A stretch of 54,653 bases of DNA from a virus. Shown here piece by piece: positions 1 to 43,450 of the stretch. Each line of letters begins with the position of its first letter. Positions within the stretch are counted from its first letter, which is position 1. The notes under the pieces were generated by a model. The model ran no database searches. It saw only the letters and a program-made list of their open reading frames with translations, and was not told where the DNA came from. Location of the stretch: the IMG/VR virus record IMGVR_UViG_3300042698_000041, positions 1 to 54,653 of that record; one strand, 5' to 3'. The position numbers and the translations under genes are program-made.

Positions 1-127
1 ACGCTGCGAAATGCATGTAGGAGAGGAGCCCATGTGAGCCATCCAGGCGAAGATGCACCCCCAGACTGGAGCCCCGAGGAGCAAAGTGCAGGGGTGGGGG
101 AGAAACTTGGACGGGCGGATCGGGTGG
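1..127. repeat. Left terminal inverted repeat (127 bp)
   Basis: Base-by-base comparison: 1..127 equals the reverse complement of 54527..54653. Identity breaks at 128 (a vs c). Contains RBS GGAGAGGAG and the first 31 codons of ORF 34..351. Confidence 0.95.
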
Positions 128-351
128 ACACCCAGAGCATGGTTCGAGAAGGAGTTGACCTTCTTGTGGGCTTGGCTCAGGAGTATCGGGTTCTTTCGGA
201 ACAGGGTGGCCCCGTCGATCAGATGGAGCACAACGCTGAACTGGCAGCCAAGCTGATCAGCAATCTTCCTGAGCCGCTCAAAAGCCTGATCGTCGTGGAG
301 CTTGCCCGGCAACTTGAGTGGTCCATGGCACGGAAAGGGAGTCACAACTGA
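34..351 (+). CDS. hypothetical protein (start lies inside the TIR)
   Basis: GTG start shortly after GGAGAGGAG. First 31 aa (MSHPGEDAPPDWSPEEQSAGVGEKLGRADRV) are identical to the right-end ORF. Confidence 0.6.
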   Translation: MSHPGEDAPPDWSPEEQSAGVGEKLGRADRVDTQSMVREGVDLLVGLAQEYRVLSEQGGPVDQMEHNAELAAKLISNLPEPLKSLIVVELARQLEWSMARKGSHN

Positions 352-371: not shown

Positions 372-992
372 ATGAGACGCCTGGCGCAACGACGCTGGAA
401 TCCGGGCAAGGGCTTCATCAAGGTCACGGAATGGGGAGACTCGGCCGTGTGGTGCAAACCCTTGGCTGACGGGTGCCTGGTGGCCATATACATGCCAGAT
501 TGGTGGGACAACCTGGACTCGGAGTCCATGCCCACGCTCTGGTACCACGTGATCATCTCGGTGCCAAGAGGTTCATGGTTGCCGGACAACATCATCGACA
601 AGATGTGGCGCTGGCGTTGGGCGGATAGGCACCAGGATCCGACCGAGCCTTCCTGGACGGCCTGGGGCGCGGTTTTCCTACTTAGGGAACTACGTCCACC
701 AAGTCACAAGATCTACCATCGCAAGATCAAGCCATTCAAGGGCTCGACCCGCAAATCCTGGGAACGCGGACACAAGATCTTGTTCTTCGACCGTGAGCGT
801 CGGTATGCACATAGGGCACGAGGAGGTAAGCCCTTCGGGCTGCCCCAATCCGTGCGGAGGGCCTTGGCCCCCAAGCGTAAGGAGATCAAGGAGCTGATCG
901 CCTATCAGCAACAGGAATGGGACAAATGGGAGGAGGGTAGCAAGGATGTTGCGGCCATCTCTGGAGACAGTGCTGTGTCCCTGGTGCGTTAA
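372..992 (+). CDS. hypothetical protein
   Basis: 206-aa ORF starting 20 nt after the previous stop. Non-repetitive composition. Confidence 0.5.
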   Translation: MRRLAQRRWNPGKGFIKVTEWGDSAVWCKPLADGCLVAIYMPDWWDNLDSESMPTLWYHVIISVPRGSWLPDNIIDKMWRWRWADRHQDPTEPSWTAWGAVFLLRELRPPSHKIYHRKIKPFKGSTRKSWERGHKILFFDRERRYAHRARGGKPFGLPQSVRRALAPKRKEIKELIAYQQQEWDKWEEGSKDVAAISGDSAVSLVR

Positions 993-1191
993 GCCGGGAG
1001 GCCTGAGCCTGGCCATCCAGTTCTACGTGGAGCCGGTCGGTTCCTTCAGCTTGGCAGGCGTGGGTATGAAGCTGTCCATGCGCGAAGTCCCCAAACTTGC
1101 TTGCTCCCTATGCCAGCGGTCCATGATAGGGCGCCTGGAGGGCTCTGAGGCCGTTTTCCCTGATCCCCACGTTGAGCCCGAAAGGGGGTGA
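946..1191 (+). CDS. hypothetical protein with two Cys pairs (zinc-ribbon-like)
   Basis: CPWC ... CSLC. Overlaps the upstream ORF by 47 nt. Confidence 0.4.
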   Translation: MLRPSLETVLCPWCVKPGGLSLAIQFYVEPVGSFSLAGVGMKLSMREVPKLACSLCQRSMIGRLEGSEAVFPDPHVEPERG

Positions 1192-1430
1192 ATCGGATGT
1201 TCTATTGCGATCCATGCGCCGATAACTTCGGTTGGGTCAAGACGATCGCGCGCAGCCTTGGCGCCTGCGAAATCTGCTGCGCAGGACCGGTTGACTGCAA
1301 TGACAAGCCCTCATCTGTGCTGCCTGATGTTCCTCTTGAGAAAGTTCAGGCTGTCATGAGGGCCAGGGACGAAAGGATGATTGATGAAGTTTCGCGCAAG
1401 ACGGCAGGCGATCCGGACATTGACTCCTGA
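1188..1430 (+). CDS. hypothetical Cys-rich protein
   Basis: CDPC...CEICC...C in the N-terminal half. Start is GTG 1188 or ATG 1197. Confidence 0.5.
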   Translation: MNRMFYCDPCADNFGWVKTIARSLGACEICCAGPVDCNDKPSSVLPDVPLEKVQAVMRARDERMIDEVSRKTAGDPDIDS

Positions 1431-1593
1431 ACAGGAGGGGCAGATCGTTCTGCGCCAACGCGACACGCTCATGGTTTACCTCAGGGAGCGGGCGAAATGG
1501 TGTCCGTTGGTTGAGATCAACGATATCTACCGCTTCTTTGACTACGACCCGGCCAAGGATCTTGAAGAAGTAGAAGATGATTGGCCTAGTTAA
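1381..1593 (+). CDS. hypothetical protein
   Basis: 70-aa ORF with an acidic C-terminus. Overlaps the previous ORF by 50 nt. Confidence 0.4.
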   Translation: MMKFRARRQAIRTLTPEQEGQIVLRQRDTLMVYLRERAKWCPLVEINDIYRFFDYDPAKDLEEVEDDWPS

Positions 1594-1670
1594 CTATTGA
1601 CACTAACCGGGGAACTGGGCAAGGTTCCCAAGAGCGTGATACCGTCTGAACCAGAGAGGAAAGGTAGCTA

Positions 1671-1973
1671 ATGAGCAGGATCGATGCTGAAGTGGCATCA
1701 AAGATCCGGCAGGTTATTGAGCTGGCGCGTCTACGAGGCGTCGATCCTGTCCATGCCTTGGACCTGGCCGGGATGCTGCGCTATCCCGACAAGATCTTCG
1801 ACGATCAAGTGGAGTTCCTTGGGCATCTCATCGAATTCACTCGTAAGCCCCCCGGAGAACTGGTTTCGGGGGAAAGAATGCCCAAGTCTCCATTGGATCT
1901 TAAAAACTTAGTGATCAAGTACCTGGAAGCAGTGAAGGAGAACTTTATCCGTGAGTACACAAAGAAGCTCTGA
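1671..1973 (+). CDS. hypothetical protein
   Basis: ATG preceded by GAGAGGAAAGG. Balanced composition. Confidence 0.6.
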   Translation: MSRIDAEVASKIRQVIELARLRGVDPVHALDLAGMLRYPDKIFDDQVEFLGHLIEFTRKPPGELVSGERMPKSPLDLKNLVIKYLEAVKENFIREYTKKL

Positions 1974-2133
1974 CGCTCCGCAGAATCTTGCGGAGTTCGA
2001 GCGCTGGCGAACCGAGAAGAATGCCTATATCTGCGACGATCACTATCTTCGCGAGGTTGATCGCAGGTGGCGCATGATCGGCAGGCTTGCCAGGCAACCC
2101 GCCTCATTGACCGAGGTGCAGCGCAACACCTGA
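1951..2133 (+). CDS. hypothetical protein
   Basis: 60-aa ORF that fills the gap to the next gene. Weak support. Confidence 0.3.
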   Translation: MSTQRSSDAPQNLAEFERWRTEKNAYICDDHYLREVDRRWRMIGRLARQPASLTEVQRNT

Positions 2134-2150
2134 AGTAGAGCGAGGAGAGA

Positions 2151-2630
2151 ATGGAACAAGAAATTCGTGAATGCGGCTGTCCGGTAGAGAAAAATTTTAA
2201 CCGCACCAACATGATCCTTTGGATCAAGGGGCTCCAGTCTGGTCGGTATCCACAGGGACGCCTGCGACTTGCCACCAAGGAACGGGAGGATTGGCATTAC
2301 TGTTGTCTCGGTGTTTCGTGCGAAGTTGCTATTGCCAATGGGCTTGTAATCGATGTTGCAGTTGAAGCACGTGGCTTTTCTGGTACTCGCTTAAAGTCCT
2401 ACAACGGCAGCAGATCTGCTCTTCCTGAAGCTGTTACAAGATGGCTTGGCGTGCCAGAATCCGATATCACCATTCCCCTTATGAGCCTGATGGATGGGCA
2501 GTGGGTTTGCATTGGGACTTCAGACGTCGCATCCCACGCAAATGACGACCTGATGTACTCCTTCGATGGGATCGCTGCCGCGCTTATGCATCGATTCGAG
2601 ATCACCCAGGAGGAGATTGATGCTGCCTGA
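2151..2630 (+). CDS. hypothetical protein
   Basis: ATG preceded by GAGGAGAGA. 159-aa globular-looking ORF. Confidence 0.6.
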   Translation: MEQEIRECGCPVEKNFNRTNMILWIKGLQSGRYPQGRLRLATKEREDWHYCCLGVSCEVAIANGLVIDVAVEARGFSGTRLKSYNGSRSALPEAVTRWLGVPESDITIPLMSLMDGQWVCIGTSDVASHANDDLMYSFDGIAAALMHRFEITQEEIDAA

Positions 2631-2650
2631 GGTGGACAAGGAGCGGATGA

Positions 2651-2866
2651 ATGAAGTCCGGCCTGCAAGAACTGATTGAACGAGCCATTCCCCTTGTCCC
2701 GCAAGAGAAAGAACACGACTGGAAGTCAGTCAGGCTTACGGGATGTGGCGCTTGCGGGGAGCACGAAGGGTTCGAGTGCCTCAACTGCCACCGCTGCGTG
2801 GATGGGCAGACCGACTGGAACCTGTACATCTTGATCCTGGAGGAGATCCGTGGCCCATACTTTTGA
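2651..2866 (+). CDS. hypothetical Cys-rich protein
   Basis: ATG preceded by AAGGAGCGG. CGACGEHEGFECLNCHRC motif. Confidence 0.5.
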   Translation: MKSGLQELIERAIPLVPQEKEHDWKSVRLTGCGACGEHEGFECLNCHRCVDGQTDWNLYILILEEIRGPYF

Positions 2867-3164
2867 TCCACCTGTATACAGGGATTTAGTGCAGTACATG
2901 GAGTTTGATCCTGAAGGTGGGCCCAGCAACCATTGGGATCCCTGGATGCTTGAGGAACAATACCCGCCCAGCCTGGGCGAGCTGATGCTGTCCGTACGAC
3001 AATCTGAAGAGGTGAACGATGGAGGACGAGGACAAGCTGCTTCTTCCAGCGGAGGTGGCAGCCCTGTTCCGGGTGAACTCCAAGACGGTGACCCGCTGGG
3101 CGAAGGCCGGGAAAATGGGGTCGATCAGGACCCTGGGAGGACATCACCGATTCAGCAGGGATGA
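2850..3164 (+). CDS. hypothetical protein (3' extent doubtful)
   Basis: The first ~57 aa look coding. The rest overlaps 3019..3261 in another frame and is Gly/Ser/Pro-rich. Confidence 0.3.
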   Translation: MAHTFDPPVYRDLVQYMEFDPEGGPSNHWDPWMLEEQYPPSLGELMLSVRQSEEVNDGGRGQAASSSGGGSPVPGELQDGDPLGEGRENGVDQDPGRTSPIQQG

Positions 3165-3261
3165 GGTGACCAAGGTTCTGCGTGCCAACTACACCCAGGC
3201 GGTTTTGCATAAGCGTCTGGAGGAGTTGGACAAGATTGTGGCTGAAAGACAAGAGCCATGA
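3019..3261 (+). CDS. helix-turn-helix DNA-binding protein (MerR/excisionase-type)
   Basis: AEVAALFRVNSKTVTRWAKAGK...LGGHHRF is a typical excisionase-family HTH pattern. Confidence 0.7.
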   Translation: MEDEDKLLLPAEVAALFRVNSKTVTRWAKAGKMGSIRTLGGHHRFSRDEVTKVLRANYTQAVLHKRLEELDKIVAERQEP

Positions 3262-3521
3262 GCAAGGCAGAGGCGATGAACACCGTACTCGACACGAAGA
3301 TCGGGGACATGGAGTTCGGTAGCCCCTTTGTCAACGCCAGGATCCGCAACACCTTGCAGCGCAACGGGATTATGACCTTGGAACAGCTGGTTCAACTTGA
3401 GGCCTCAGATCTTTGGGACATGCAGGGTCTTGGCTCGATCAGCATCTCCTTCATCCTTGCCAAGCTCAACAACCTTGGGCTTAAGCTCAGGCGTCGTGAG
3501 CCAAACGAACCGAGATCCTGA
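3258..3521 (+). CDS. RNA polymerase alpha-subunit C-terminal-domain-like (HhH) protein
   Basis: FVNARIRNTLQRNGIMTLEQLVQLEASDLWDMQGLGSISISFILAKLNNLGLKL follows the alpha-CTD helix-hairpin-helix pattern. Confidence 0.55.
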   Translation: MSKAEAMNTVLDTKIGDMEFGSPFVNARIRNTLQRNGIMTLEQLVQLEASDLWDMQGLGSISISFILAKLNNLGLKLRRREPNEPRS

Positions 3522-3662
3522 CGTCGTCGCATTCGAACGAGCTGTTCGACATGATGCTGTCGTACACAGGATCCAAGCCATATATCGCATGAGCGCCCTG
3601 CGCGGTTCCCCACGAACCTGGTGGGCCGTCAGGGCGCTTTTGCGTGAAAGGAGAGAGAAGAA

Positions 3663-3809
3663 ATGAGAGCTATCACAGGGATGGCAATCGTTGCGGCCAT
3701 CATTGCCACCACGATGCCGCATGGAGAAGCCCTATGGCTTGTGACGTGCTTAATGGCGACCGGCTTGGCCGGAGTTGACATGGTCACCGAGAAGCGGAGG
3801 CAGAAATGA
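3663..3809 (+). CDS. small membrane protein
   Basis: Hand-translated 48-aa ORF after GAAAGGAGAGAGAAG. Hydrophobic segments. ATGA overlap with the next ORF. Confidence 0.5.
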   Translation: MRAITGMAIVAAIIATTMPHGEALWLVTCLMATGLAGVDMVTEKRRQK

Positions 3810-3949
3810 ATCCATTTATTGGTTTCGGGGTGATTTGTGCCCTGATTGCCATGTCAACTGAGAATGGCCACGGGGCGTTCATCGGCGTGGCTTTCGTGTC
3901 CGGCCTTTTGGGTATCATCGTTGATCTGGCGCTCAAGGGGAAGCAATGA
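3806..3949 (+). CDS. small membrane protein
   Basis: Hand-translated 47-aa ORF with two hydrophobic segments. ATGA overlaps on both sides. Confidence 0.5.
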   Translation: MNPFIGFGVICALIAMSTENGHGAFIGVAFVSGLLGIIVDLALKGKQ

Positions 3950-4533
3950 CGGCCGTGTTTCCTGTCCACCCAGACGATGTAGACCAGCTGCTCAAGATCC
4001 GCCGATACCTGATCGGTTACCGGATCACCAACGGATGGACCCAGCAGGAGCTGTCCCAGCGGATCAGTGGCATGACCGGCAAGGGCTGGGTCTACGATCT
4101 GGAGGGAAGCAAGACCTGGCAGTGGAGGTTCTCCCGGCTTCAGGACTGGACGGTTCCCTTCGGTCTGCGGCTCAAGGCGCGGTTGCGCTTCAGTGGAGCC
4201 TTGGTTGATGATCCCCCGGTCTACGGTGACCCTGATGAACAGCGTGACCTGACCTTCGCCATAGACTCCCATCCCGAGGTTGCCCCCATGCTTTCCCTGT
4301 CACTAAAGCAGGAGGCCTGGCGCACGTGGCAGCGGATGTATCTGACCTCTGCCCTTTCCGTAGCGCGCAGGGAGCTGGGCATATCCACGGCTGATATGGG
4401 GGTTCGCCTGGGCGTCGGAGCCAGCGCTGTGCGCAATTGGGAGAACGTTGCCAACGAGATCATGTTGCCCAAGGTCTTGGCCTATGCCCGCGCCCTTGGT
4501 GGCGCCATAGAGCTGGGACTACAAGAGGCATAA
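3946..4533 (+). CDS. tandem XRE-family HTH DNA-binding protein (repressor candidate)
   Basis: Two Cro/C1-type HTH units: GWTQQELSQRISG and LGISTADMGVRLGVGASAVRNWEN. Confidence 0.75.
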   Translation: MTAVFPVHPDDVDQLLKIRRYLIGYRITNGWTQQELSQRISGMTGKGWVYDLEGSKTWQWRFSRLQDWTVPFGLRLKARLRFSGALVDDPPVYGDPDEQRDLTFAIDSHPEVAPMLSLSLKQEAWRTWQRMYLTSALSVARRELGISTADMGVRLGVGASAVRNWENVANEIMLPKVLAYARALGGAIELGLQEA

Positions 4534-4537
4534 AAAA

Positions 4538-4568
4538 GCCCCGAGCCTGCTGCGAACAGGTTCGGGGC
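4538..4568 (+). terminator. stem-loop after the XRE gene (terminator candidate)
   Basis: gccccgagcctg / caggttcggggc, 12 bp with one G-U pair and a 7-nt loop. A-run before the stem but no clear T-run after it. Confidence 0.45.
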
Positions 4569-4672
4569 TCATCCATCCCAGTAGCACCGTCTCCCAAGGC
4601 CCTTGGCTCCACAGCCGGGGGCGGACCACTACCACCAGGGTTTTTCCTTTTATCTGTCCATCGTCGCACGGA

Positions 4673-5077
4673 TTGGATGTCATCGCAAGGAATCGAAGGT
4701 ACCATTTGCTACATGACGGCATCAGCGCTACTCTTTGGTACATGAAGTATTGGACACCCCTCGAATACCTCACTTCACTGGTTGTGTTATCCCTGCTCGT
4801 AGCCTTTGTTGCAGTGATGAACTGGAACACGGCGGCAAGAGCATCCCTGGCCCCCAAGGTCAAGGTTGCTATGGGCTTGCCCATCCAGGCGGGCATGGTG
4901 ATCGCGGGGATGGCTCTACGGCCATGGGTCTACCTGGCATACGGGTTTTCCTGTATAGCCTGGAGCCTGGCGGACCTGTGGTACTTACCCCTGGCCAACG
5001 TTGTAGACAAAAAGATGGTTGAACCTCTGGGCCTATACATCAAGGCCTTGCATCATCGGCCGGAACACGCGAGGTAA
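4673..5077 (+). CDS. multi-pass membrane protein
   Basis: Several hydrophobic helices. An alternative start at ATG 4742 is possible. Confidence 0.55.
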   Translation: MDVIARNRRYHLLHDGISATLWYMKYWTPLEYLTSLVVLSLLVAFVAVMNWNTAARASLAPKVKVAMGLPIQAGMVIAGMALRPWVYLAYGFSCIAWSLADLWYLPLANVVDKKMVEPLGLYIKALHHRPEHAR

Positions 5078-5082
5078 ACGCA

Positions 5083-5370
5083 ATGGGATGGACAAGCCTG
5101 GGGGATGCCCAGTGTGACAGCTGCCCCCAGGAACGCATTGGAAGTATGGACCGCCAAGCGGCGATCCAGATGATCAGGGCTGGCGGCTGGCATCACATGA
5201 TCGGAACCACCATTGGGGGAGTCCCATTCGAAGCAATCCTGTGCCCTGGGTGCGCCAAGGATGAGCGTAAGCGTCCAAGAACCACTGTCCAAATAGACCA
5301 AGATGCACTTCCGTTCGACTGGGAGGAGTACAGGAAAGTTGAGCGAGGGCAAGGCTTTCAGTCTCGATAG
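5083..5370 (+). CDS. hypothetical protein with CxxC pairs
   Basis: CDSC ... CPGC. 95-aa ORF. Confidence 0.5.
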   Translation: MGWTSLGDAQCDSCPQERIGSMDRQAAIQMIRAGGWHHMIGTTIGGVPFEAILCPGCAKDERKRPRTTVQIDQDALPFDWEEYRKVERGQGFQSR

Positions 5371-5395
5371 GGTCACCGGTCAGTGGCAAGAGTTC

Positions 5396-5701
5396 ATGCT
5401 CAAGCACGACCGTGTCGCTCTGGACAAGCAATGGATGGACAACTTCAAGCAGCTACTTCGGGAAGTGTCTGCGGGCGTCGACACCTTCACCCTCAAGGGA
5501 GCCAAGGTAGCCATGTTTGTCCCCGGCCAGTTGAACAAGGCCCTGTTGGCATCAGAACGTCCGGACATCATCGAACGCTTCACCGAGATGGTGGTGGAAC
5601 AGAAGTTCAACGCCATCAGGTTTGCCAAAGAGGAACCGGAGCTGTTCGCACGCTACCGTGCACAGCGCTTGGTTCTGGTGGAGGAGAAGAGAAACAAATA
5701 G
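5396..5701 (+). CDS. hypothetical protein
   Basis: Internal ATG of ORF 5303..5701, chosen to avoid a 68-nt overlap. The start is uncertain. Confidence 0.4.
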   Translation: MLKHDRVALDKQWMDNFKQLLREVSAGVDTFTLKGAKVAMFVPGQLNKALLASERPDIIERFTEMVVEQKFNAIRFAKEEPELFARYRAQRLVLVEEKRNK

Positions 5702-5718
5702 TTAACAAGGAGAGGAAA

Positions 5719-6660
5719 ATGACTGCACCATCTGGAATCATCACCCGCATATGGACTGTGGACAAGAAGACAGCAGAGAAGTTCCTCAGCTTCGAGAAGC
5801 AGCCCCAGAAAGGGGTTAGGGGCACCAACCGCAAGCCCAGTGAAGACGTGGTCAACAGGTACGCCTTCGAGATGCTGGCGGGACACTGGGGCTTCTCGCA
5901 CCAGGGATTTGCCTTCATCGGCAAGATGGTCGATGGGGATGCCGACTTCAAGGACGGTGGGCAGCGTTGCCGGGCCATCATCCAGGCAGCCACGGTAGGC
6001 GCCTCATTCGGCGACCACACCATCCCCGCCAATCCCGACATCTCCATCGACGTCATGGTGACCGAGGGCCTGGACGAGGCCGCTTGGCTTGTGATGGACA
6101 TCGGCAAGGGGCGCAAGCCTGGAGATTTTCTGGGGATGGAGGGGGAAGTGAACACCAACGTGTTGTCTTCTGCCATCCAGTTGTGCTACCAGTACGAGAA
6201 CGAGCCTTTCGGGGTGGCGTTCTCGCGCCACAAGTGGAGCAAGCACAAGATGACCCCTACCATGCGCTATCAGTACCTGGAGAACAACCCCACTATCCGG
6301 CACGCCGTGTATGAGGGTGCCCGTCTACATAAGCACATGACAGTCTCGGCTGCCTCGGCTGCCTACTTCTTGGCGATCAAGGCCGGGGTCAAGCAGGACA
6401 AGGTCGATGAGTTCTTCGACTCTATGTTCAGTGGCACTGGTGAGAACTGGGTGAAGGGCAACCCGATCCTTCAGTTGCGCGAGATGCTCAGCAACGCTCG
6501 TAAGAGCCGTCGCAAGATGACTCGCGAGGAGCAACTGGCCCTGTTCATCAAGGCGTTCAACGCTTGGACGAACGGATCCGAGATCAAGAACCTGGTCTTC
6601 CGAACCAAGACCTCAAGCACTGGTGCAGCGCCGGAAGCGTTCCCTCGCTTCCAGCTTTGA
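5719..6660 (+). CDS. ParB/Srx-fold-like protein
   Basis: ATG after AAGGAGAGGAAA (aa 113 of ORF 5383..6660). FKDGGQRCRAII resembles the ParB box II GERRxRA / DGQHR motif. Confidence 0.5.
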   Translation: MTAPSGIITRIWTVDKKTAEKFLSFEKQPQKGVRGTNRKPSEDVVNRYAFEMLAGHWGFSHQGFAFIGKMVDGDADFKDGGQRCRAIIQAATVGASFGDHTIPANPDISIDVMVTEGLDEAAWLVMDIGKGRKPGDFLGMEGEVNTNVLSSAIQLCYQYENEPFGVAFSRHKWSKHKMTPTMRYQYLENNPTIRHAVYEGARLHKHMTVSAASAAYFLAIKAGVKQDKVDEFFDSMFSGTGENWVKGNPILQLREMLSNARKSRRKMTREEQLALFIKAFNAWTNGSEIKNLVFRTKTSSTGAAPEAFPRFQL

Positions 6661-6683
6661 CCTTTCTATGACACAGTGTTGCC

Positions 6684-7154
6684 ATGGTTTCCTATGGCTT
6701 CCGTGTGTATGGCATTCCGAAACCCCAGGGGTCCAAGATCCCTGGGGTTTCGTCTAAGACGGGTAAAATGTTTGTTCGAGAACAAAGCGGAAAAGGGCTT
6801 ACAGACTGGCGCGAGGATGTCAAACAGGCTGCCCTGTCTGCCCGTGGAGTTCCCGGACACACCTCAGACATAGTTGATGTTCCTGTGGCTACCTTGCTCG
6901 GTCCGATCAACCTGAAGATTCAATTCTTCTTGCTCCGTCCGGCCAGCGTCAAAATGAGCAAGCGCCCGCTGCCCACCGTGGCTCCCGACCTTGACAAGCT
7001 GATCCGTGGAACCGGCGATGCCCTCAAGGTTGCCGGGGCTTACAACGATGACGCTCAGGTCGTTGCCATCCAGGCGACGAAGGTTTATGTCACCGATTCG
7101 CCGGGTGCCTGGATTGTGATCTCCGAGATTCCCACGGAGACCTTGAGCCTTTAG
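6684..7154 (+). CDS. rusA: RusA-family Holliday junction resolvase
   Basis: GIPKPQGS ... APDLDKLIRGTGDAL ... YNDDAQVV are the characteristic RusA motifs. Confidence 0.8.
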   Translation: MVSYGFRVYGIPKPQGSKIPGVSSKTGKMFVREQSGKGLTDWREDVKQAALSARGVPGHTSDIVDVPVATLLGPINLKIQFFLLRPASVKMSKRPLPTVAPDLDKLIRGTGDALKVAGAYNDDAQVVAIQATKVYVTDSPGAWIVISEIPTETLSL

Positions 7155-7201
7155 AATGAACTCCAGAGAGGGGAACGCATGGCATAGAATAGGCGGAGAA
7201 G

Positions 7202-7402
7202 ATGTCAAACCTTAGTACAGCGCAGGCGGCCAAACTGGTCGGCAAGCATCCCCGCACGATCGTCTCGTGGATTCACAAGGGCATGCTGCCAGCAGTGAAA
7301 TACCCAGGGGGAAGGGGGGCGTATGTGATTCGCAGTGACGATCTGGAGAAGCTGGTCGCCCATCTCTACACCCCGCAGCCCTACAAACCCAAGGGGGAGT
7401 AG
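7202..7402 (+). CDS. helix-turn-helix DNA-binding protein (excisionase-like)
   Basis: LSTAQAAKLVGKHPRTIVSWIHKGMLPA HTH pattern. 66 aa. Confidence 0.65.
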   Translation: MSNLSTAQAAKLVGKHPRTIVSWIHKGMLPAVKYPGGRGAYVIRSDDLEKLVAHLYTPQPYKPKGE

Positions 7403-7425
7403 GTGGACAAGGAGAGAGGAGTTCA

Positions 7426-7665
7426 ATGAACTCTAAAGCCGATGACAAATTGCAGACAACCATCGATCGCCCATACGCATCGAAGGTAGAGCATGCTCTG
7501 ACCTATGCTCACCTTCGACGCCGCCACGCCGAAGGTGAGCTGCCACCGATCCACGACTGGACCGGAGATTTGGTGGCTGGATATGCCAGCATCCTGGGAG
7601 TTGACGAGAAACTCAAGGCCTCGGGGATGAGGCGGGTCGAGAAGATCATGGAGGCCAATCGGTGA
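7426..7665 (+). CDS. hypothetical protein
   Basis: 79-aa ORF after GGAGAGAGGAG. Confidence 0.5.
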   Translation: MNSKADDKLQTTIDRPYASKVEHALTYAHLRRRHAEGELPPIHDWTGDLVAGYASILGVDEKLKASGMRRVEKIMEANR

Positions 7666-8027
7666 CTGCTTATCTGTACCCCGGTGACAGGATCCATATC
7701 ACGGTTCCCAAGGACTGGGGGGCGAACAAGGCAAGCTCCGACACCAGGATGAACGAGGCCATCGCTGCCTATGGTGAAATGGGTATCGAGGTTTTCATGG
7801 TCACCGAGGTCTTCTATGCCACCGGACCTGAGGTGGTGTGTGTCATCCGCCCCAAGCCCATCATCCCAGACAGAATGATCTCTAAGAGGTATCGGGGTCA
7901 GACTCAGGATCCTGTTGCATCCATGGAGGAGAATTTTGAGGTCCTCCTGGGCCCCAAAGAATCATCCGAGGATCTACCTCCGGGGCAGCTTCCTCCGTGG
8001 GTGTATGCCCCGGACGATCTTCCTTAG
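7662..8027 (+). CDS. hypothetical protein
   Basis: GTGA-coupled to the previous ORF. The 3' end overlaps the convergent ORF 7882..8406. Confidence 0.5.
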   Translation: MTAYLYPGDRIHITVPKDWGANKASSDTRMNEAIAAYGEMGIEVFMVTEVFYATGPEVVCVIRPKPIIPDRMISKRYRGQTQDPVASMEENFEVLLGPKESSEDLPPGQLPPWVYAPDDLP

Positions 8028-8406
8028 GCAGCTCATCGCCCCACCACTCATAGTCGTCCCAAGGCGTCCCATCGGCTTTCTGAGCTGCTCTGGGGCGCCT
8101 GCCCATGGGAGTCCTGCCCTCCCCAAGGTACAGCTCGCGTCCGTTGCGCTCAGTGGTCACCAGTTCCAGTTCCAAATTGCTGGGGGCGACGAACACTCGG
8201 CGCAGAAACAGGATGATCAGCTTTCGGGCGTCCCGCTGAATCTCCCAACGGGTGTGCCCGGCCACCCTGATACGGACATGCATCTTGTCCGAGTCAAGCA
8301 TCTCCAGCTTCATGCCCCGCAGGGTCGGACGTACCCGAACCAGCCGTGCCGCCAGCGTCCTCATGCCGTCCATGACAGCCTGAGGATCCTTGTCCCGCAA
8401 GGACAA
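7882..8406 (-). CDS. hypothetical protein (last gene of the late operon)
   Basis: 174-aa ORF downstream of the holin. The C-terminal 146 nt overlap the convergent + strand ORF. Confidence 0.5.
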   Translation of the reverse strand: MSLRDKDPQAVMDGMRTLAARLVRVRPTLRGMKLEMLDSDKMHVRIRVAGHTRWEIQRDARKLIILFLRRVFVAPSNLELELVTTERNGRELYLGEGRTPMGRRPRAAQKADGTPWDDYEWWGDELPKEDRPGHTPTEEAAPEVDPRMILWGPGGPQNSPPWMQQDPESDPDTS

Positions 8407-8413
8407 GCGCCAG

Positions 8414-8788
8414 CTATAGGTTTGAAGGATAGAGACCGCCCCCTGACACTGGTGGATCTGCTGGAGGAGGGAACATCGTTGCCAGCCTGTCCGCCATCTC
8501 CTTCATGTCACGGCGATGCTGGTCGGCAGCATTGACCTGGTCACGACGCATCTGTTCGATCGTGTCACGCAGGTTGCCCATCTGGCCGTTGGTCTGCTCC
8601 TTGATCTGCGAGGTGGTCTGCTGGATCTCGGACTGCTTGTTGAAGATGTAGCCGAAACCAAGAGCCGCCAGGATGGCAAGCACCCCGGCCAAAACCTGCG
8701 AGCCATCCTTGCCGAACCAGGCGAGAGCACCCAGGACCATGACGATCAGGCCCACCAGGGCGACATGTTGCCATTTCAGTTCTTTCAT
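8414..8788 (-). CDS. holin-like membrane protein
   Basis: Two N-terminal TM segments plus a charged coiled tail. Lies immediately downstream of the lysin. Confidence 0.6.
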   Translation of the reverse strand: MKELKWQHVALVGLIVMVLGALAWFGKDGSQVLAGVLAILAALGFGYIFNKQSEIQQTTSQIKEQTNGQMGNLRDTIEQMRRDQVNAADQHRRDMKEMADRLATMFPPPADPPVSGGGLYPSNL

Positions 8789-9549
8789 TACTTTGGTCCC
8801 AGTCCGGTGTTGTTCAGTTCTGTGCGAACGATCTGCGCAATGACCGGGGTCAACGCCGCGACCAGTGCTGGGATATCCACCGTGGCCGTGAGCCCCTCAA
8901 GTTCGGCGAGGATCCTCTTGGCGTTCTCGTTCGCCTTGAACGCGTTGTCGTTGGCGTACACCAAATAGCTCGACGCGATATCGGCGGTTCCCGGTGCGCC
9001 GGGGTTCTCGAAACTGGTGCCCCATACCTCGTCAGAGATTGATGCCACTTGTCCTCCTTCGAAGAATCTGCGAAATGGGGAAACTTTGTCCCTGAATTCG
9101 CTGTCACGGTAATACGACACATGAGTGTGGGTGCGATGGGACAAATCGTCATCGGGCATGGGCTGCGAGGATTGCCCGCGCTCCCGGTCCCATCGGTACA
9201 CATTCACCCCGTCTGGACTGAAAATGATCTCCCGAATGTCCAGGGTGTCTGAAACGCCCTGTCGGCACTGGTCCACCAGCCAGATGGACAAAGGGCGCAG
9301 TTCGTCCAGGTCGTCATCGATGTCCAGCGCCGAAGCCGCGTTGCTCAGTCCCGCCTTGTCCCGGGATGTGCGGGCACTGTAGGGGTTCTTGCTCATTTGC
9401 AAATCGTCTTTTCCCAGGTGATACGAGGTTCCCTGGGCGACATGCGATGGACCTCCGACGATGCCTAACTCTTCGTTGGTCAGGTCTGGATCTTGGCCCT
9501 TAAGGTAGGCTCGCGCCTGCTTCAGTGTCTCTGGTGCAAACGTCATCAT
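8788..9549 (-). CDS. endolysin (M15/VanY-like peptidase motifs)
   Basis: SYHLGKD ... ALDIDDD ... HTHVSY resembles the zinc-peptidase H..D / HxH pattern. Position is next to the holin. Confidence 0.55.
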   Translation of the reverse strand: MMTFAPETLKQARAYLKGQDPDLTNEELGIVGGPSHVAQGTSYHLGKDDLQMSKNPYSARTSRDKAGLSNAASALDIDDDLDELRPLSIWLVDQCRQGVSDTLDIREIIFSPDGVNVYRWDRERGQSSQPMPDDDLSHRTHTHVSYYRDSEFRDKVSPFRRFFEGGQVASISDEVWGTSFENPGAPGTADIASSYLVYANDNAFKANENAKRILAELEGLTATVDIPALVAALTPVIAQIVRTELNNTGLGPK

Positions 9550-23297: not shown

Positions 23298-24115
23298 TCG
23301 TAGGTCACGACATACTCCCGTTCGGCGAGCATCAGCATTTGGTTGGTGGTGCGATTCAGCGAACCCTCCACGGGAGCAACCTGGACCTCGGAATCCGGTG
23401 TCCGCCAGATCACCGTCTGGCCGGTCAGGTACATCCAGAACACACCGTCAGCGGGAGCGGCCCCAGCGGGATCGTTGTTGGCATAGCAGCCAGCGGAAAC
23501 CACGGTCCCCATAGGGGTGCGCCACCTGGTGCCATCCCATTCGATGAGGTGCTCTCGCTTGAGATAATTCAGGACCGGGATCGCCACATGCAGATATCCA
23601 GGCGGACCATAGCGCGTCGTGTTGCCGGTGAATCCGCAGTAACGTGCCCGTTCCAGCTCGGAAAGGACATCCACCACGTTGTCTCCGGCACCGGTAACCG
23701 TGGTGATCCCGTCACCAGTGATCAGGCCTGGTGCCTGGCCGAAGGTGGAGGTGGAGAAGATGTTCTCCAGGAGTCCCTGCTCCACCCCGCGCAGGCGCTC
23801 CATGACAAAAGCACGCTGCTCTTCGTAGGTGTATCCCACCGTCCCACAGGTGACCGTGGCGGCGATGATGAACGGGAGCCCGGTGACCGTGGTGGTTCCC
23901 AAGGAAAACTCGGTGGTCTTGCTCGCCGTGGCTCCGATACAGGCAATCTCGTAGCCGAAGCCGTCGTCACACAGGCTTGTGACATAGCGCAATCCGCCAT
24001 TGCGCGCATGGACGGGCAGATCCAAGGGCCCCACGGCAGCCTGAAGCAGTCCGTACCGCAGCGGCATGGACGGGGTCGGCTTCTCAATAAGGACCGGGGG
24101 GATTGTCGCTACCAT
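23258..24115 (-). CDS. virion structural protein (possible second HK97-fold or tail tube protein)
   Basis: 285-aa ORF just downstream of the capsid gene. Function not resolved from sequence. Confidence 0.45.
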   Translation of the reverse strand: MVATIPPVLIEKPTPSMPLRYGLLQAAVGPLDLPVHARNGGLRYVTSLCDDGFGYEIACIGATASKTTEFSLGTTTVTGLPFIIAATVTCGTVGYTYEEQRAFVMERLRGVEQGLLENIFSTSTFGQAPGLITGDGITTVTGAGDNVVDVLSELERARYCGFTGNTTRYGPPGYLHVAIPVLNYLKREHLIEWDGTRWRTPMGTVVSAGCYANNDPAGAAPADGVFWMYLTGQTVIWRTPDSEVQVAPVEGSLNRTTNQMLMLAEREYVVTYECGGFAKAVTLWT

Positions 24116-24179: not shown

Positions 24180-26000
24180 TTACGGGGTCACGTCCGTGCA
24201 GGTCACGGCGCGCTGGACACCGGTGGAGCCGTTGGCACAGATGTTGATGGTGTATGCGTAGCTGAACTGGCACATACGCATCGGCTTGAAGCCGTCCTCC
24301 ATGAACAACTGCGTGACGAGGTTCTGCTGGAGATTCGCCGCGTCGTAAACCGTATCGAGACGAATCACGTCCTGTCGTCCCAAAACCCACGTACCGGGCA
24401 GGAAGGCCAGGAAGGTCACCGAGGTCGGCATGTTGAACAGTGCCGCCGCGATCGGACCTGCCGGGTTGCCGAACTGGTGGTTGACGTCGATGGCACCGGC
24501 ACCGTTGGTCGGATCGAACGCGTCCTGCCAGTCGTAGATCCACTGGATCGAGACGTAACGACGTGCCAGAGCTGCATCGATCATCTGATCGGTCAGCTCC
24601 TCGGTGAAGGTGGCGTTGCGACGCAGCCAGTCGGCACGAAGGCCGGTCTTGACCCAGTACGGGAAGACCATCTGCACCTGCTGGGTCTGCGACGTGCGGT
24701 ACATGTAGCGGATGTTCATCGCCACCATGTCAATCGCGGACATCAGCTGCGACCACACCGAACCATCCGAGGCCCAAGGGTCCAGGGTGGAAAGGGTGAT
24801 GGCGGTCGAACCGGCCTCGATCTCGTTTACCACCTCGCGGTTGACCAGATGGGCCATGGCCGCAATCGCCCCACGTACGAACTCGGCCACGAACTCCGGA
24901 TAGCCACGGTTCTGAAGCAGAGAAGATGTCAGACACAGGGCAGCCACGTTGAGCCGGTCATCCACGAACGATGGACACGGGATCTCGATACAGGTCTTGG
25001 CGGTGTCGGCGATGACCTGTGCCTCGGTCAGGATGTTGTAACCCGTGATCGGGAGAGTGAAGTCACCCCCGAAGAAGTCGGCGAAGTCCAGGCCCTGGTT
25101 GTGCAGCAGACCACCACGGCGAAGCACCATCTCCGGCAGGTTGAGCAGACCGTCCGTGGTGATCGGTGAGCAGATGCTGTAGTCGGGCTCCGATGGGGCA
25201 CACCAGCCGTTTGCCGCCACCAGTGAAGCATCCCGGCTGAAGGTGTCCGAGGTGCCACGCAGCTTGTTGAAGGCGCCCTCGTGCGAGTCACCCTCGAAGA
25301 TCACCTGAGTGTCTGGGAAGTCCCTGCGAATACGGGCAAGCGAATGCTGCATACGCGTCTTGACGCCAGCACGAGCACCGCTGGGATAGGCGCGCACGCG
25401 CTCTTCGAAGGCACGCCCCACATCTTCCCAGGAAAGCTCGGATCCAGTGGGGAAGGAAGCGATGTCGGCAGCGGCCACGATGGTGAACCCGGGGCTGTCG
25501 TCAGTGACGATTTCCGCAGTCGGGGAGTTGGGAGCCACGTCGGAAATCTGAACCGAACGGCGTGGGGCGTTGTCCACCGCGCCAGCGGCGGTAACAGTTG
25601 CCTCAACCACGGTCGTCGGCTCGGAGACCACCGGGACAGCGGGGGTGCTGTCGGTAACGTCCTTGTTTCCGTTCTCGTCGAAACCACCATCAGCGGTAAC
25701 CGCCGAGGCCTCCTGCGGCTGGGTCTCGGCGACGTTGTTGCGTGGCTCGATCGGCTTTTGCGCAGCGGCACGATTGGCCAGGATCTGACGGGCATCAAGC
25801 TCGGCATCGGCAGCGGCAACGAAAGCGGCAAGCTCCTCAGCCTGGGTCAGTGCCGACTCGTCAGGACTGTCGGTGTTGATGGATGCCACCAGAGTGCCAT
25901 GGTCGGCAGCAGCCAGGTTGCGAAGATCGGTGAGCGTGGGGGTCCCATAGACCTCAAGCTCATACTTGCCCTCAGCATTGGGGCGAGGTGGGGTGAACAT
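24180..26000 (-). CDS. major capsid protein with N-terminal scaffold-like extension
   Basis: 606 aa. The N-terminal ~270 aa are Ala/Glu-rich and coil-like. The C-terminal ~330 aa are globular. Position is downstream of the protease. Confidence 0.55.
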   Translation of the reverse strand: MFTPPRPNAEGKYELEVYGTPTLTDLRNLAAADHGTLVASINTDSPDESALTQAEELAAFVAAADAELDARQILANRAAAQKPIEPRNNVAETQPQEASAVTADGGFDENGNKDVTDSTPAVPVVSEPTTVVEATVTAAGAVDNAPRRSVQISDVAPNSPTAEIVTDDSPGFTIVAAADIASFPTGSELSWEDVGRAFEERVRAYPSGARAGVKTRMQHSLARIRRDFPDTQVIFEGDSHEGAFNKLRGTSDTFSRDASLVAANGWCAPSEPDYSICSPITTDGLLNLPEMVLRRGGLLHNQGLDFADFFGGDFTLPITGYNILTEAQVIADTAKTCIEIPCPSFVDDRLNVAALCLTSSLLQNRGYPEFVAEFVRGAIAAMAHLVNREVVNEIEAGSTAITLSTLDPWASDGSVWSQLMSAIDMVAMNIRYMYRTSQTQQVQMVFPYWVKTGLRADWLRRNATFTEELTDQMIDAALARRYVSIQWIYDWQDAFDPTNGAGAIDVNHQFGNPAGPIAAALFNMPTSVTFLAFLPGTWVLGRQDVIRLDTVYDAANLQQNLVTQLFMEDGFKPMRMCQFSYAYTINICANGSTGVQRAVTCTDVTP

Positions 26001-31761: not shown

Positions 31762-33267
31762 TCACCCCCAGTGGTTCAACTCCCCGATGATCGGCATCTT
31801 GTCGGTGGGCACATATCCCAGCGATGGTGCCGAAAAGTTCAGCGGCGAAATGACCCGAGACCTACGCCGCTCGCCTTCCATCAGGTGCCGAACGGCATGG
31901 ACAAGGGCATCAAGCCGGTCCGGCGAAGCCTTTGATGAGAGCGGATCGAAGGTCAGCATCTGGGTTTCCAGCTTGTCGAAAACGCCCAGGTGATGCACCC
32001 TGCCTTGCGAATACCTCATCGCCACCGGCTCGGCACGAAGCTTCTTTCCCTGGTTGGAGAACACCGGCACCAGCGGCGGATTGATGACTTCGGACGGGAA
32101 CACTCCGGCGCGCTGAAGCTCCCGGAAGGCATCGGTGAAAACTTGATGCATCCAGGCTTTGCCGAGGTTGGATTCGTATACGAGAGTGTCGCAGTGGTAG
32201 CGCTCGAAGACTCTCCAGGCATGCATAGCGGCATCCCGCCCTGCCAGTTTCGTCGTCTCATCGGCAATGACATAGGCATGGTCCTTGTAATCCCGGCTGA
32301 CCACGACGACACCCATTTCGTCGCCATCCTCATCGCCGGTCAGGCCCGGATCAACACCTACGGTCCGGTGGGCTACCCGATCGGGTCCGATCTCCAATCT
32401 GTTGGCATGGATGACTGAGTAGCTGAACAGAGCCCCTGTGACATCGTCCAGGAGTTCTCCATACAACTCCTGACGGCCAAGTGCCGTGCCCTCGTAAGTC
32501 TGCCGAAGCTCCTCAACGGCATCCTCAGACAGATTGATCATGTTGTCGAAGGTGCTTCCCCGGACAATGCAGACCTTCCATTTGTCCGGGTCGGACACCC
32601 AGTTCTTGAGCAACATAATTGGCTTAGGCGTCGTAGTAACCAATGCCCTGGGCTTGTCCCCGGGAATGTCGGCACGAAGAGCCGGACGGATGCCCTCGCG
32701 CCAGGTGTCCTCGGGTGCCGCCCATTTGATCGGCTCATCCAGCCACACATCGGCCAGGTTCTTGGACCGGGCGGCATCGATCGTGGCGCCGGTGAGGTGA
32801 ATGACCGCACCGGTTTCCAGCAGCCGGACATAGGGCTTGGGGCTCTTGGTGAAGGTGTATTTGTTCTCTACGCTATCGATCTTGCGGTTGCTGATGACCT
32901 CCTCGAACCCCATCCGTTGCAACACCCGGATCACCCCGGAGGGTCCTTCGGCACAAGAGGCCACAGCATCGGAGATGTTGTAAGCCATGATGAGACGCTC
33001 GGTGGGGAACCCGGAGGAGTCGTAGGGATACTCAAGGGTCCGGGAGACAATCCACTCGGCACCGGAACGGGTCTTGCCGAAACCACGTCCGGCCAGCATC
33101 AGGCAAATGGACCAGTCTCCTTTGGGAGGCATTTGCTCCGGGCGTGCCACCCAGAACCATTCCTCCCGTGCGATCATCTCCAAGACTTGGGGATCAAGCG
33201 AGTCAAGGAACTCGTGACGAAGATGCTTCGGCATCTGCATCACGCGCTGCTTGAGACTGAGCCCCAT
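31762..33267 (-). CDS. terL: terminase large subunit
   Basis: Walker A GRGFGKTRSG, VWLDEP Walker B-like motif, 501 aa. First gene of the late operon. Confidence 0.9.
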   Translation of the reverse strand: MGLSLKQRVMQMPKHLRHEFLDSLDPQVLEMIAREEWFWVARPEQMPPKGDWSICLMLAGRGFGKTRSGAEWIVSRTLEYPYDSSGFPTERLIMAYNISDAVASCAEGPSGVIRVLQRMGFEEVISNRKIDSVENKYTFTKSPKPYVRLLETGAVIHLTGATIDAARSKNLADVWLDEPIKWAAPEDTWREGIRPALRADIPGDKPRALVTTTPKPIMLLKNWVSDPDKWKVCIVRGSTFDNMINLSEDAVEELRQTYEGTALGRQELYGELLDDVTGALFSYSVIHANRLEIGPDRVAHRTVGVDPGLTGDEDGDEMGVVVVSRDYKDHAYVIADETTKLAGRDAAMHAWRVFERYHCDTLVYESNLGKAWMHQVFTDAFRELQRAGVFPSEVINPPLVPVFSNQGKKLRAEPVAMRYSQGRVHHLGVFDKLETQMLTFDPLSSKASPDRLDALVHAVRHLMEGERRRSRVISPLNFSAPSLGYVPTDKMPIIGELNHWG

Positions 33268-42365: not shown

Positions 42366-42367
42366 CT

Positions 42368-42470: not shown

Positions 42471-42486
42471 AACAAAAAGAGGTGAC

Positions 42487-42609: not shown

Positions 42610-42618
42610 GGAATCCAG

Positions 42619-43447: not shown

Positions 43448-43450
43448 ACC

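What the first reader, a model, noticed from the sequence alone, without database searches (positions are those of the whole stretch)
1..127. Exact 127-bp terminal inverted repeat that duplicates an RBS and the first 31 codons of the two end-proximal genes
Seen in sequence: 1..127 is the perfect reverse complement of 54527..54653. Each copy contains only 33 nt of leader, an RBS (GGAGAGGAG), a GTG start and 31 identical codons. Two different proteins (105 aa and 262 aa) are therefore transcribed inward from both ends with the same N-terminus. Established knowledge: terminal inverted repeats are typical of protein-primed replicons (phi29, PRD1, Streptomyces linear plasmids) and of hairpin-telomere replicons (N15-like phages, Borrelia), where the two ends are halves of a palindromic resolution site. 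Most tailed actinophages have cos ends or direct repeats. I found no B-family protein-primed polymerase, terminal protein or protelomerase. Inference: this is either a new end-replication or telomere arrangement, a circular or concatemeric form carrying a 254-bp palindrome with divergent identical promoters and leaders, or an assembly artefact (fold-back chimera).
Basis: partly seen in the sequence, partly recalled or inferred. Interest (0 to 1): 0.7.

Follow-up and report, generated by a model that had tools for sequence, protein, structure and literature searches.

The report
Contig cut at an inverted repeat
The perfect 127-base inverted repeat at the two ends of this phage contig is real sequence, but its length and its terminal position come from the assembler (127 is its word size), so the contig ends are not the ends of the virus genome and a piece of the genome is probably missing.

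Summary
In detail: 1-127 is the exact reverse complement of 54527-54653, and identity falls to random at base 128. The interpretation as genome termini does not hold.

The window is JGI contig Ga0502594_05598842. JGI assembles with metaSPAdes, largest k = 127. The length of the shared ends follows the assembler's k:
- A related NCBI contig (54,323 bp) has an exact 55-bp repeat at its ends.
- Logan (k = 31) contigs of the window's own phage, and of a fourth species, share exactly 30 bases (k-1).
- In one relative assembled many times, the left contig end lies 27, 120, 124 or 138 bases upstream of the same ATG, for k = 31, 123, 127 and 141.

So these roughly 54-kb contigs are the unique segment between two copies of a real, conserved inverted repeat of at least k bases. 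The repeat's inner edge sits at the start of the first gene on each side.

One read-through contig in a relative continues 2.4 kb further out. It carries a conserved gene of about 140 aa, an AT-rich intergenic region of about 800 bp and divergent genes, and no palindrome centre. That gene is absent from the window. A relative that assembles without a break is 65 kb. The window therefore probably lacks up to about 10 kb (inferred).

No protein-primed polymerase, terminal protein or protelomerase was found. TerL, portal and MuF proteins are present. The shared "31 codons" score poorly as coding sequence.

The parts
1..127 (+). Left copy of the inverted repeat as far as the contig shows it. It is exactly one metaSPAdes 127-mer, and the real repeat continues outward beyond base 1.
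   Evidence: exact repeat; JGI contig; JGI k = 33..127; terminal overlap tracks k in other assemblies.
54527..54653 (-). Right copy of the same repeat, also cut at exactly 127 bases.
   Evidence: The Logan contig DRR519670_4472158 stops at window 54556, 30 nt into the repeat.
127..128 (.). Inner boundary of the repeat (mirror position 54526/54527). This is the real branch point in the assembly graph.
   Evidence: The same boundary is found by a k = 31 assembly. In relatives the homologous boundary lies within about 5 nt of a start codon.
20..36 (+). Purine-rich RBS-like GGAGAGGAG plus the GTG at 34 (mirror 54618-54634). It may be a leader or upstream-ORF feature rather than the true gene start.
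   Evidence: Sequence; codon-usage score of 34-126 is atypical for coding sequence; JGI calls ATG 139 instead.
124..126 (+). Alternative GTG start, the last full codon inside the repeat (mirror 54528-54530). On the right side it gives MARADQL..., which aligns with the homologue start MAAADQL....
81..92 (+). 12-mer GCAAAGTGCAGG, also present in the 55-bp repeat of relative JADMIO011683295.1 at a similar distance from the boundary but in a different frame. This is conservation at the DNA or leader level.
   Evidence: chance expectation about 3e-4 (own arithmetic).
34..351 (+). First left-arm ORF: 105 aa from GTG 34, or 70 aa from ATG 139 as called by JGI. No homologues found.
53832..54620 (-). 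First right-arm gene. It belongs to a family with a conserved Cys/His-rich C-terminal domain: 262 aa from GTG 54620, or 232 aa from GTG 54530.
   Evidence: The gene sits at the contig end in L006, L008 and L010 as well.
53623..53835 (-). Second inward-reading right-end gene (70 aa).
372..8027 (+). Left arm: small early-type genes including HTH regulators, DUF8296, a conserved 313-aa protein and RusA. All read inward from the left contig end, so their promoter must lie outside the contig.
31762..33267 (-). Large terminase (Terminase_6N/6C). With the portal (29448-31295), MuF (28633-29451) and major capsid protein (24180-26000) it forms a concatemer-cutting packaging set. This is context against protein-primed or hairpin ends.
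50824..53469 (+). D5-type primase/helicase, the only replication enzyme seen near the right end. No DNA polymerase B, terminal protein or protelomerase was found.

Best explanation
The window is the long unique segment of a tailed-phage genome, lying between the two copies of a real inverted repeat.

A de Bruijn-graph assembler cannot pass such a repeat. The unique edge starts at the k-mer that ends one repeat copy and stops at the reverse complement of that k-mer. The contig therefore carries an exact inverted repeat of exactly k bases (127 for JGI metaSPAdes) at its ends. The true repeat is at least 127 bp long and continues outward. The contig ends are not molecule ends.

Biologically, the repeat is a shared 5' leader with a purine-rich RBS. 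It sits directly in front of the first gene of two gene blocks that read away from a central region.

By analogy with relatives (inferred), that central region is absent from the window. It holds a conserved gene of about 140 aa, a long AT-rich intergenic control region and a block of small genes, perhaps about 10 kb in all. The full genome would then be about 65 kb, with a circular or concatemeric map packaged by a terminase.

Recombination between the two repeat copies could invert the central region. That would explain why the 140-aa gene is joined to one arm in some species and to the other arm in others. This last step is the least certain.
For: SHOWN
(1) The window is JGI contig Ga0502594_05598842. 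The JGI workflow uses metaSPAdes with k = 33, 55, 77, 99, 127. The terminal repeat is exactly 127 bp.
(2) The same phage in Logan (k = 31) gives contigs that stop at window 98 and 54556. They share exactly 30 nt (k-1) of the repeat.
(3) The relative JADMIO011683295.1 (54,323 bp) has an exact repeat of 55 bp at its ends.
(4) The relative SRR22277754_19993 (53,758 bp, Logan) has exactly 30 nt.
(5) One species was assembled seven times. The left contig end lies 27, 120, 124 or 138 nt before the same ATG, for k = 31, 123, 127 and 141. A right-end contig shares exactly 127 nt with the left-end contigs and then diverges.
(6) Read-through contig L049 continues 2,427 nt beyond the repeat with genes and no palindrome centre. 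L031 (65,005 bp) runs from the left arm into 11.5 kb of further sequence without a break.
(7) The 140-aa gene lies next to the arm starts in 7 loci. A profile search does not find it in the window.
(8) No promoter-like site occurs in 1-1200, and only 33 nt precede the proposed start.
(9) TerL, portal and MuF are present. No polymerase B, terminal protein, protelomerase or recombinase was found.

INFERRED
The size and content of the missing piece rest on the 10,896-bp contig carrying an inter-arm gene and on L031. Inversion is inferred.
Against: - No contig of the window's own phage reads past base 1 or 54653, so the outward sequence and the true repeat length are unknown for this genome.
- The Logan DRR519670 contigs are 100.000% identical to the window over 42 kb. 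They are probably the same reads, so they are not an independent sample.
- The assembler and k of the NCBI contig are not documented here. That 55 is the SPAdes default maximum is my own knowledge.
- The k = 123 assignment for the older JGI contigs comes from arithmetic plus JGI's MEGAHIT k-list, not from the records themselves.
- The read-through evidence comes from other species with about 60% protein identity.
- A linear genome with long terminal inverted repeats would give the same contigs.
Confidence: 0.9

Rival explanations
1. The phage has a linear genome with long terminal inverted repeats (hundreds of bases to kilobases). The window is the core. Each real end carries a copy of the outward region: the leader, the 140-aa gene, the intergenic region and possibly more.
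For: A de Bruijn graph gives exactly the same picture for this layout (own reasoning). The 140-aa gene is found upstream of the right-arm gene in L007, L009 and L011, and upstream of the left arm in L049 and L031. That is what a duplication on both ends would show. L031 could be read as 53.5 kb of core plus 11.5 kb.
Against: - TerL with a nuclease domain, portal and MuF indicate cutting of concatemers.
- No polymerase B, terminal protein or protelomerase was found in the window.
- L031 passes the boundary without a break in a k = 127 assembly, as expected for single-copy sequence.
- No tailed phage with such ends is known to me.
Confidence: 0.07
2. The two ends abut in a circular or concatemeric form as a perfect palindrome, of 254 bp or somewhat longer with a short loop. 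It would be comparable to a telRL site that a protelomerase resolves into hairpin telomeres.
For: The graph signature is also compatible with a palindrome whose arms are at least 127 bp (own reasoning). The repeat carries divergent identical leaders.
Against: - No protelomerase or partition genes were found.
- In the relative with a read-through contig there is no palindrome centre within 2,427 nt.
- Known telomere-resolution sites are tens of base pairs (own knowledge), whereas arms here are at least 141 bp in a relative.
Confidence: 0.02
3. The 127 bp is the true and complete terminal inverted repeat of a linear virion DNA, and its equality with k is a coincidence.
For: The repeat is exact and terminal in the record.
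Against: Ends in four related species and five assemblers equal k or k-1 every time: 127, 55, 30, 123 and 141. Two operons read inward with no room for a promoter.
Confidence: 0.005
4. The repeat results from a fold-back or chimeric library artefact with no real repeat in the genome.
For: The only second assembly of this phage probably uses the same reads.
Against: The same repeat-bounded layout, at the same gene, recurs in unrelated datasets from NCBI, ENA, JGI and Logan, in species that differ by about 40-60% at the protein level. A fold-back would duplicate one end, not join two different unique flanks.
Confidence: 0.005

Closest known systems
Assembly-graph behaviour of genomes with an inverted repeat pair (for example plastid LSC / IR / SSC contigs from SPAdes-type assemblers)
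   Same: The unique segment is emitted as a contig whose two ends are reverse complements of each other over exactly k bases. The overlap changes with k. The repeat and the second unique segment end up on separate small contigs.
   Different: Here the genome is a phage. The repeat length and the second segment have not been recovered for this sample. Flip-flop isomers have not been shown.
Invertible segments of phages Mu (G segment) and P1 (C segment, flanked by about 0.6-kb inverted repeats) (own knowledge)
   Same: A phage segment of a few kilobases is bounded by inverted repeats. The gene parts next to the repeat differ between relatives. Both orientations of the 140-aa gene relative to the arms are seen across species.
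   Different: - No serine invertase was found in the visible sequence.
- The repeat covers 5' leaders and gene starts, not the join between constant and variable parts of a tail-fibre gene.
- Inversion within one population has not been shown.
Protein-primed replicons with terminal inverted repeats (phi29, PRD1 and other tectiviruses, Streptomyces linear plasmids)
   Same: Only the appearance of an inverted repeat at the ends of the record.
   Different: No B-family polymerase or terminal protein was found. A terminase-type packaging set is present. The repeat length is set by the assembler.
Hairpin-telomere phages (N15, PY54, phiKO2)
   Same: The joined ends would form a palindrome-like region with divergent transcription.
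   Different: No protelomerase was found. The arms are at least 127-141 bp. A relative shows kilobases of unique sequence beyond the arm.
ITR-flagged 'complete' viral contigs in CheckV / IMG/VR-type pipelines
   Same: A contig with a terminal inverted repeat of at least 20 bp would be called closed. CheckV itself found that only 33% of such contigs were more than 90% complete.
   Different: This case provides a concrete mechanism and a simple diagnostic: the repeat length equals the assembler's k.

Membership tests
Contig bounded by a genomic inverted repeat (de Bruijn graph break) | The terminal inverted overlap equals the assembler's largest k. | tested here: met
   127 bp. The contig is from JGI, and JGI metaSPAdes uses k up to 127.
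Contig bounded by a genomic inverted repeat (de Bruijn graph break) | The overlap length changes with k while the inner boundary stays fixed. | tested here: met
   Window phage: 30 nt in Logan k = 31. P0016 species: 30, 123, 127 and 141 nt up to the same ATG. Other relatives: 55 nt and 30 nt.
Contig bounded by a genomic inverted repeat (de Bruijn graph break) | Sequence continues beyond the contig end in the real genome. | tested here: inconclusive
   Shown in relatives (L049, 2,427 nt; L031, 11.5 kb). Not recoverable for the window's own phage: 60-mer scans of IMG/VR and JGI metagenomes found nothing, and a 42-aa search found nothing.
Protein-primed TIR replicons (phi29 / PRD1 / linear plasmids) | B-family DNA polymerase and terminal protein. 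| tested here: not met
   Pfam and PHROGs scans of 20 proteins, plus precomputed Pfam for most genes, show a D5 primase-helicase, an exonuclease and RusA, but no polymerase. The unseen segment could not be examined.
Protein-primed TIR replicons (phi29 / PRD1 / linear plasmids) | The inverted repeats lie at the physical ends of the molecule. | not testable with these tools
   This needs reads or virion DNA. The match with k argues that the record's ends are not physical ends.
Hairpin-telomere phages (N15-like) | Protelomerase gene. | tested here: not met
   No hit in the Pfam or PHROGs scans, or in the precomputed Pfam annotations.
Hairpin-telomere phages (N15-like) | Short palindromic resolution site with abutting arms. 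| tested here: not met
   Arms are at least 127 bp (window) and at least 141 bp (relative). There is no palindrome centre within 2.4 kb beyond the arm in L049.
Site-specific invertible segments (Mu G, P1 C, Gin/Cin type) | Serine invertase gene next to the segment. | tested here: inconclusive
   None was found in the window or in the visible parts of L049 and L031. Most of the inter-arm segment is unseen.
Site-specific invertible segments (Mu G, P1 C, Gin/Cin type) | Both orientations are present in one population. | not testable with these tools
   Only between-species differences were seen: the 140-aa gene is joined to the right arm in L007, L009 and L011, and to the left arm in L049 and L031.
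Terminase-packaged tailed phages (concatemer cutting) | Large terminase with ATPase and nuclease domains, portal, and head-morphogenesis genes. | tested here: met
   Terminase_6N and Terminase_6C, portal phrog_776, Mu_F, major capsid phrog_777.

The most novel reading that the evidence does not exclude
A family of uncultivated soil phages of about 65 kb (actinophage-like) carries a conserved pair of inverted repeats. The repeats are identical 5' leaders placed in front of the first genes of two outward-reading arms.

The repeats bracket a control segment of about 10 kb holding a divergent promoter region, a conserved 140-aa gene and small genes. Recombination between the repeats flips this segment and swaps which promoter-proximal operon feeds which arm. 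The repeat boundary also drifts into coding sequence, so N-terminal modules are copied from one arm's first gene to the other's. The window's 31 shared codons, and the zinc-ribbon module seen on either arm in different species, would be examples of this.
Probability: 0.25. Interest if true: 0.55.

Novelty: not a real feature. Interest (0 to 1): 0.2.

Why it matters
As a claim about genome ends it does not matter, because the "terminal inverted repeat" is produced by the assembler's word size. There is no case here for a new telomere or end-replication mechanism in a tailed phage.

It matters practically. A contig like this would be labelled a closed genome on the strength of its inverted terminal repeat, yet it probably lacks up to about 10 kb. 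The test used here is to ask whether the repeat length equals k and whether it moves with k in other assemblies. This is a cheap filter for such calls.

The real repeat is conserved in position across at least four related species. It brackets what looks like the control region of the genome. That is a modestly interesting lead for anyone who recovers these phages with long reads.

Tried and rejected
- Near-identity DNA search of both 3-kb ends against 50,697 phage records: no match.
- Exact 60-mer of the repeat in IMG/VR and in JGI metagenome contigs: no match, not even the window itself.
- Relatives of the primase and of the 262-aa protein in IMG/VR: none.
- The 206-aa left-end protein has no homologue other than itself, so it could not be used to reach the left ends of relatives.
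- GTDB genomes hold only distant relatives, with no prophage or isolate copy.
- HMMER search of the 42-aa frame-1 translation of the repeat against 1.84 billion proteins: only low-complexity noise, and no protein extends it outward.
- The 140-aa gene pattern and profile found nothing in IMG/VR.
- RNA folding of the leaders: z-scores 0.34, -1.08 and 1.71, so no structured element.
- Promoter and terminator scan of 1-1200: nothing.
- GC skew: no informative switch at the ends.
- PDB profile search with the 262-aa family: only designed coiled coils.
- TerL is only about 35% identical to any cultured phage, too distant to infer the packaging end type.
- I first treated DRR519670 as an independent sample. 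I withdrew this after finding 100.000% identity over 42 kb.

Full report
OBSERVATION. Window 1-127 is the exact reverse complement of 54527-54653. From base 128 inward the two ends are unrelated, with 12 mismatches in the next 13 bases and then about 75% mismatch. Chance cannot produce this. The RBS-like GGAGAGGAG (20-28), a GTG at 34 and an open frame to the end of the repeat are present. The two end-proximal ORFs (34-351 +, 53832-54620 -) can therefore be written with 31 identical N-terminal codons.

WHAT THE SEQUENCE IS. The window is a tailed-phage contig. It encodes a large terminase (Terminase_6N/6C), a portal, MuF, a major capsid protein and tail genes on the minus strand (about 7.9-33.3 kb). 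It also encodes an early-type left arm, and a right arm with a TROVE/Ro-like gene, 10-11 tRNAs, an exonuclease, a polynucleotide kinase and a D5-type primase-helicase. It has no close cultured relative. The capsid and terminase proteins are about 35% identical to those of actinophages. An exact protein look-up identifies the window as JGI metagenome 3300048539, contig Ga0502594_05598842, 54,653 bp.

THE KEY RESULT: THE REPEAT LENGTH IS THE ASSEMBLER'S K.
- The JGI workflow assembles with metaSPAdes at k = 33, 55, 77, 99, 127, and the repeat is 127 bp.
- The same phage is present in the Logan assembly of run DRR519670 (k = 31). Its contigs stop at window 98 and 54556 and share exactly 30 nt (k-1) of the repeat. 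These contigs are 100.000% identical to the window over 42 kb. They are probably the same reads. They show that the branch at 127|128 is in the reads, but they are not an independent sample.

Independent support comes from relatives.
- The 262-aa protein has homologues on contigs of 54,395, 54,263, 54,817, 53,758 and 54,323 bp. In the three contigs whose ends I fetched (54,395, 53,758 and 54,323 bp), the gene sits at the very end of the contig.
- For NCBI contig JADMIO011683295.1 I obtained both ends. They share exactly 55 bp in inverted orientation.
- For Logan contig SRR22277754_19993 the two ends share exactly 30 nt.
- One further species (protein P0016) was assembled in many datasets. Its left contig end lies 27 nt (Logan, k = 31), 120 nt (older JGI, consistent with the JGI MEGAHIT k-list ending at 123), 124 nt (JGI metaSPAdes, two contigs) or 138 nt (MEGAHIT contigs named k141_...) upstream of one and the same ATG.
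- In every one of these cases the contig holds exactly k (or k-1) bases up to a boundary immediately after that ATG.
- A right-end contig of the same species (IMGVR_UViG_3300050498_000512) shares exactly 127 nt with the left-end contigs and then diverges into a different gene.

This is the expected output of a de Bruijn-graph assembler for a unique segment flanked by two inverted copies of a repeat of at least k bases. The unique edge starts at a k-mer vertex and ends at the reverse complement of that vertex.

CONSEQUENCES. The repeat is real and conserved in position, in four species and in unrelated datasets and assemblers. It is not a fold-back chimera. Its length is unknown: at least 127 bp here, at least 141 bp in the P0016 species and at least 55 bp in the NCBI relative. 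The contig ends are not molecule ends. Two gene blocks read inward from the ends, with only 33 nt before the proposed start and no promoter-like site in the first 1.2 kb. Their promoters must therefore lie outside the contig.

WHAT LIES BEYOND. For the window's own phage nothing could be recovered. Relatives give the following.
- MEGAHIT contig L049 (P0016 species) reads 2,427 nt outward from the left arm. It contains the repeat, small ORFs, a conserved 137-aa gene, an AT-rich intergenic region of about 800 bp and then divergent genes. There is no palindrome centre.
- The 65,005-bp contig L031 has the same order and runs without a break from the left arm into 11.5 kb of further sequence.
- In L007, L009 and L011 the same 140-aa gene lies directly upstream of the right-arm (Cys-rich) gene instead.
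- A profile of this gene family finds nothing in the window. IMG/VR holds arm contigs of the family (L032, L033, L059) but no contig with this gene.
- An inter-arm gene of the P0016 species sits on a 10,896-bp contig.

I infer that the window lacks an inter-arm segment, possibly about 10 kb, and that the full genome is about 65 kb. The attachment of the 140-aa gene to one arm in some species and to the other arm in others is what inversion between the repeats would produce. Inversion within a population has not been shown.

THE '31 SHARED CODONS'. In relatives the repeat ends at or within about 5 nt of a start codon: ATG| in the P0016 species, ATGG| in L008, and RBS| followed 2-5 nt later by ATG in the NCBI contig. 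In the window the repeat ends GTGG|. On the right side this GTG (124-126) gives MARADQL..., which aligns with the start MAAADQL... of the closest homologue. Most family members lack the 31-residue extension. JGI called the left gene from ATG 139. The codon-usage score of 34-126 is 0.37. Only 1.3% of true 31-codon windows score lower, while the sequence just inside the boundary scores as normal coding. A 12-mer (81-92) is shared with the NCBI relative's repeat, at a similar distance from the boundary but in another frame. The repeat is therefore more likely a shared 5' leader than shared coding sequence.

N-terminal modules do move between the first genes of the two arms in this family: a zinc-ribbon module is on the left-arm gene in L030 and L049 and on the right-arm gene in L008. 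This is compatible with the repeat boundary drifting into coding sequence.

RIVALS.
- A linear genome with long terminal inverted repeats gives the same contigs. I cannot exclude it. The terminase-type packaging set, the lack of polymerase B, terminal protein or protelomerase, and the unbroken 65-kb relative make it unlikely.
- A telRL-like abutting palindrome is contradicted by the read-through contig and by the missing protelomerase.
- A true 127-bp terminus would need the match with k to be a coincidence repeated in every assembly examined.

COMPARISON WITH KNOWN THINGS. The closest match is technical: the LSC / IR / SSC contig pattern of plastid assemblies. CheckV treats terminal inverted repeats of at least 20 bp as a sign of a closed genome, but found only 33% of such contigs to be more than 90% complete. 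This window shows one reason for that. Biologically the nearest analogues are the repeat-flanked invertible segments of Mu and P1. No invertase was seen, however, and the repeat here covers gene starts rather than gene joins.

VERDICT. The telomere or end-replication reading is rejected. The feature as described (a terminal repeat of exactly 127 bp) is an assembly product of a real internal inverted repeat. Interest is low for the finding itself. There is a modest lead in the conserved repeat pair around the putative control region.

Noticed in passing
window 37531-46592: An array of 10 (ARAGORN) or 11 (Rfam) tRNA genes. Two have abnormal anticodon loops (40006-40078, 42162-42233). One (Met) is on the opposite strand at 46520-46592.
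   Followed up: partly
window 34669-36261, 40291-41403, 45941-46381: A TROVE/Ro60-like gene, a VWA-domain protein and a polynucleotide-kinase/HAD phosphatase lie among or beside the tRNAs. Relatives add RNA ligase and Thg1 (L030, L031). Together this looks like an RNA-repair or quality-control module. No Y RNA was found by Rfam at gathering thresholds.
   Followed up: partly
window 53832-54530; alignment A1: The right-end protein belongs to a family with a C-terminal domain of about 34 invariant positions, including about 10 Cys/His (WCVIHNP.PGPW ... WRGFER.C.CGVGH ... HGCCG.CPC). It has no Pfam, PHROG or PDB match, so the function is unknown.
   Followed up: partly
L030 60-170, L049 2428-2550, L008 27-155, L031 3900-4019, window 1197-1325: A zinc-ribbon module of about 40 aa (M-F/V-I/L-C-x2-C ... 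C-x2-C) heads the first left-arm gene in two species, the first right-arm gene in another, a Thg1 gene in a fourth, and a small gene in the window. N-terminal modules seem to be exchanged among the genes next to the repeat.
   Followed up: partly
L049 1340-1753; L007 936-1361; L009 220-639; L011 232-648; L031 2674-3087: A conserved gene of about 140 aa (50 invariant residues among 5 species) always lies next to a long AT-rich intergenic region, at the head of one arm or the other. It is absent from the window and from every IMG/VR contig of this phage family.
   Followed up: yes
L049 1754-1777, 2178-2202, 2402-2427: The unit GATGATCTTG(A/G)GGAGG..., an RBS-containing motif, occurs three times between the 137-aa gene and the first left-arm gene. 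Each copy is followed by an ATG, two of which open small ORFs. TTAGTTGAYYATGAT occurs both before the 137-aa gene and inside the repeat.
   Followed up: no
L004, L002, L005 versus the window: The Logan DRR519670 contigs tile window 98-54556 with 30-nt overlaps and are 100.000% identical to it. The JGI record and the DDBJ run are therefore probably the same read set. The Logan assembly breaks at about window 23421-23450 and 41710-41739 for reasons I did not examine.
   Followed up: partly
L015 (Ga0065707_10000448, 60,536 bp) 1409-1789 and 6886-9169: In this more distant relative the Cys-rich gene lies on the same strand as the left-arm genes and upstream of them, the opposite of the window's layout. 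This is further evidence that the region around the repeat has been rearranged repeatedly in the family.
   Followed up: no
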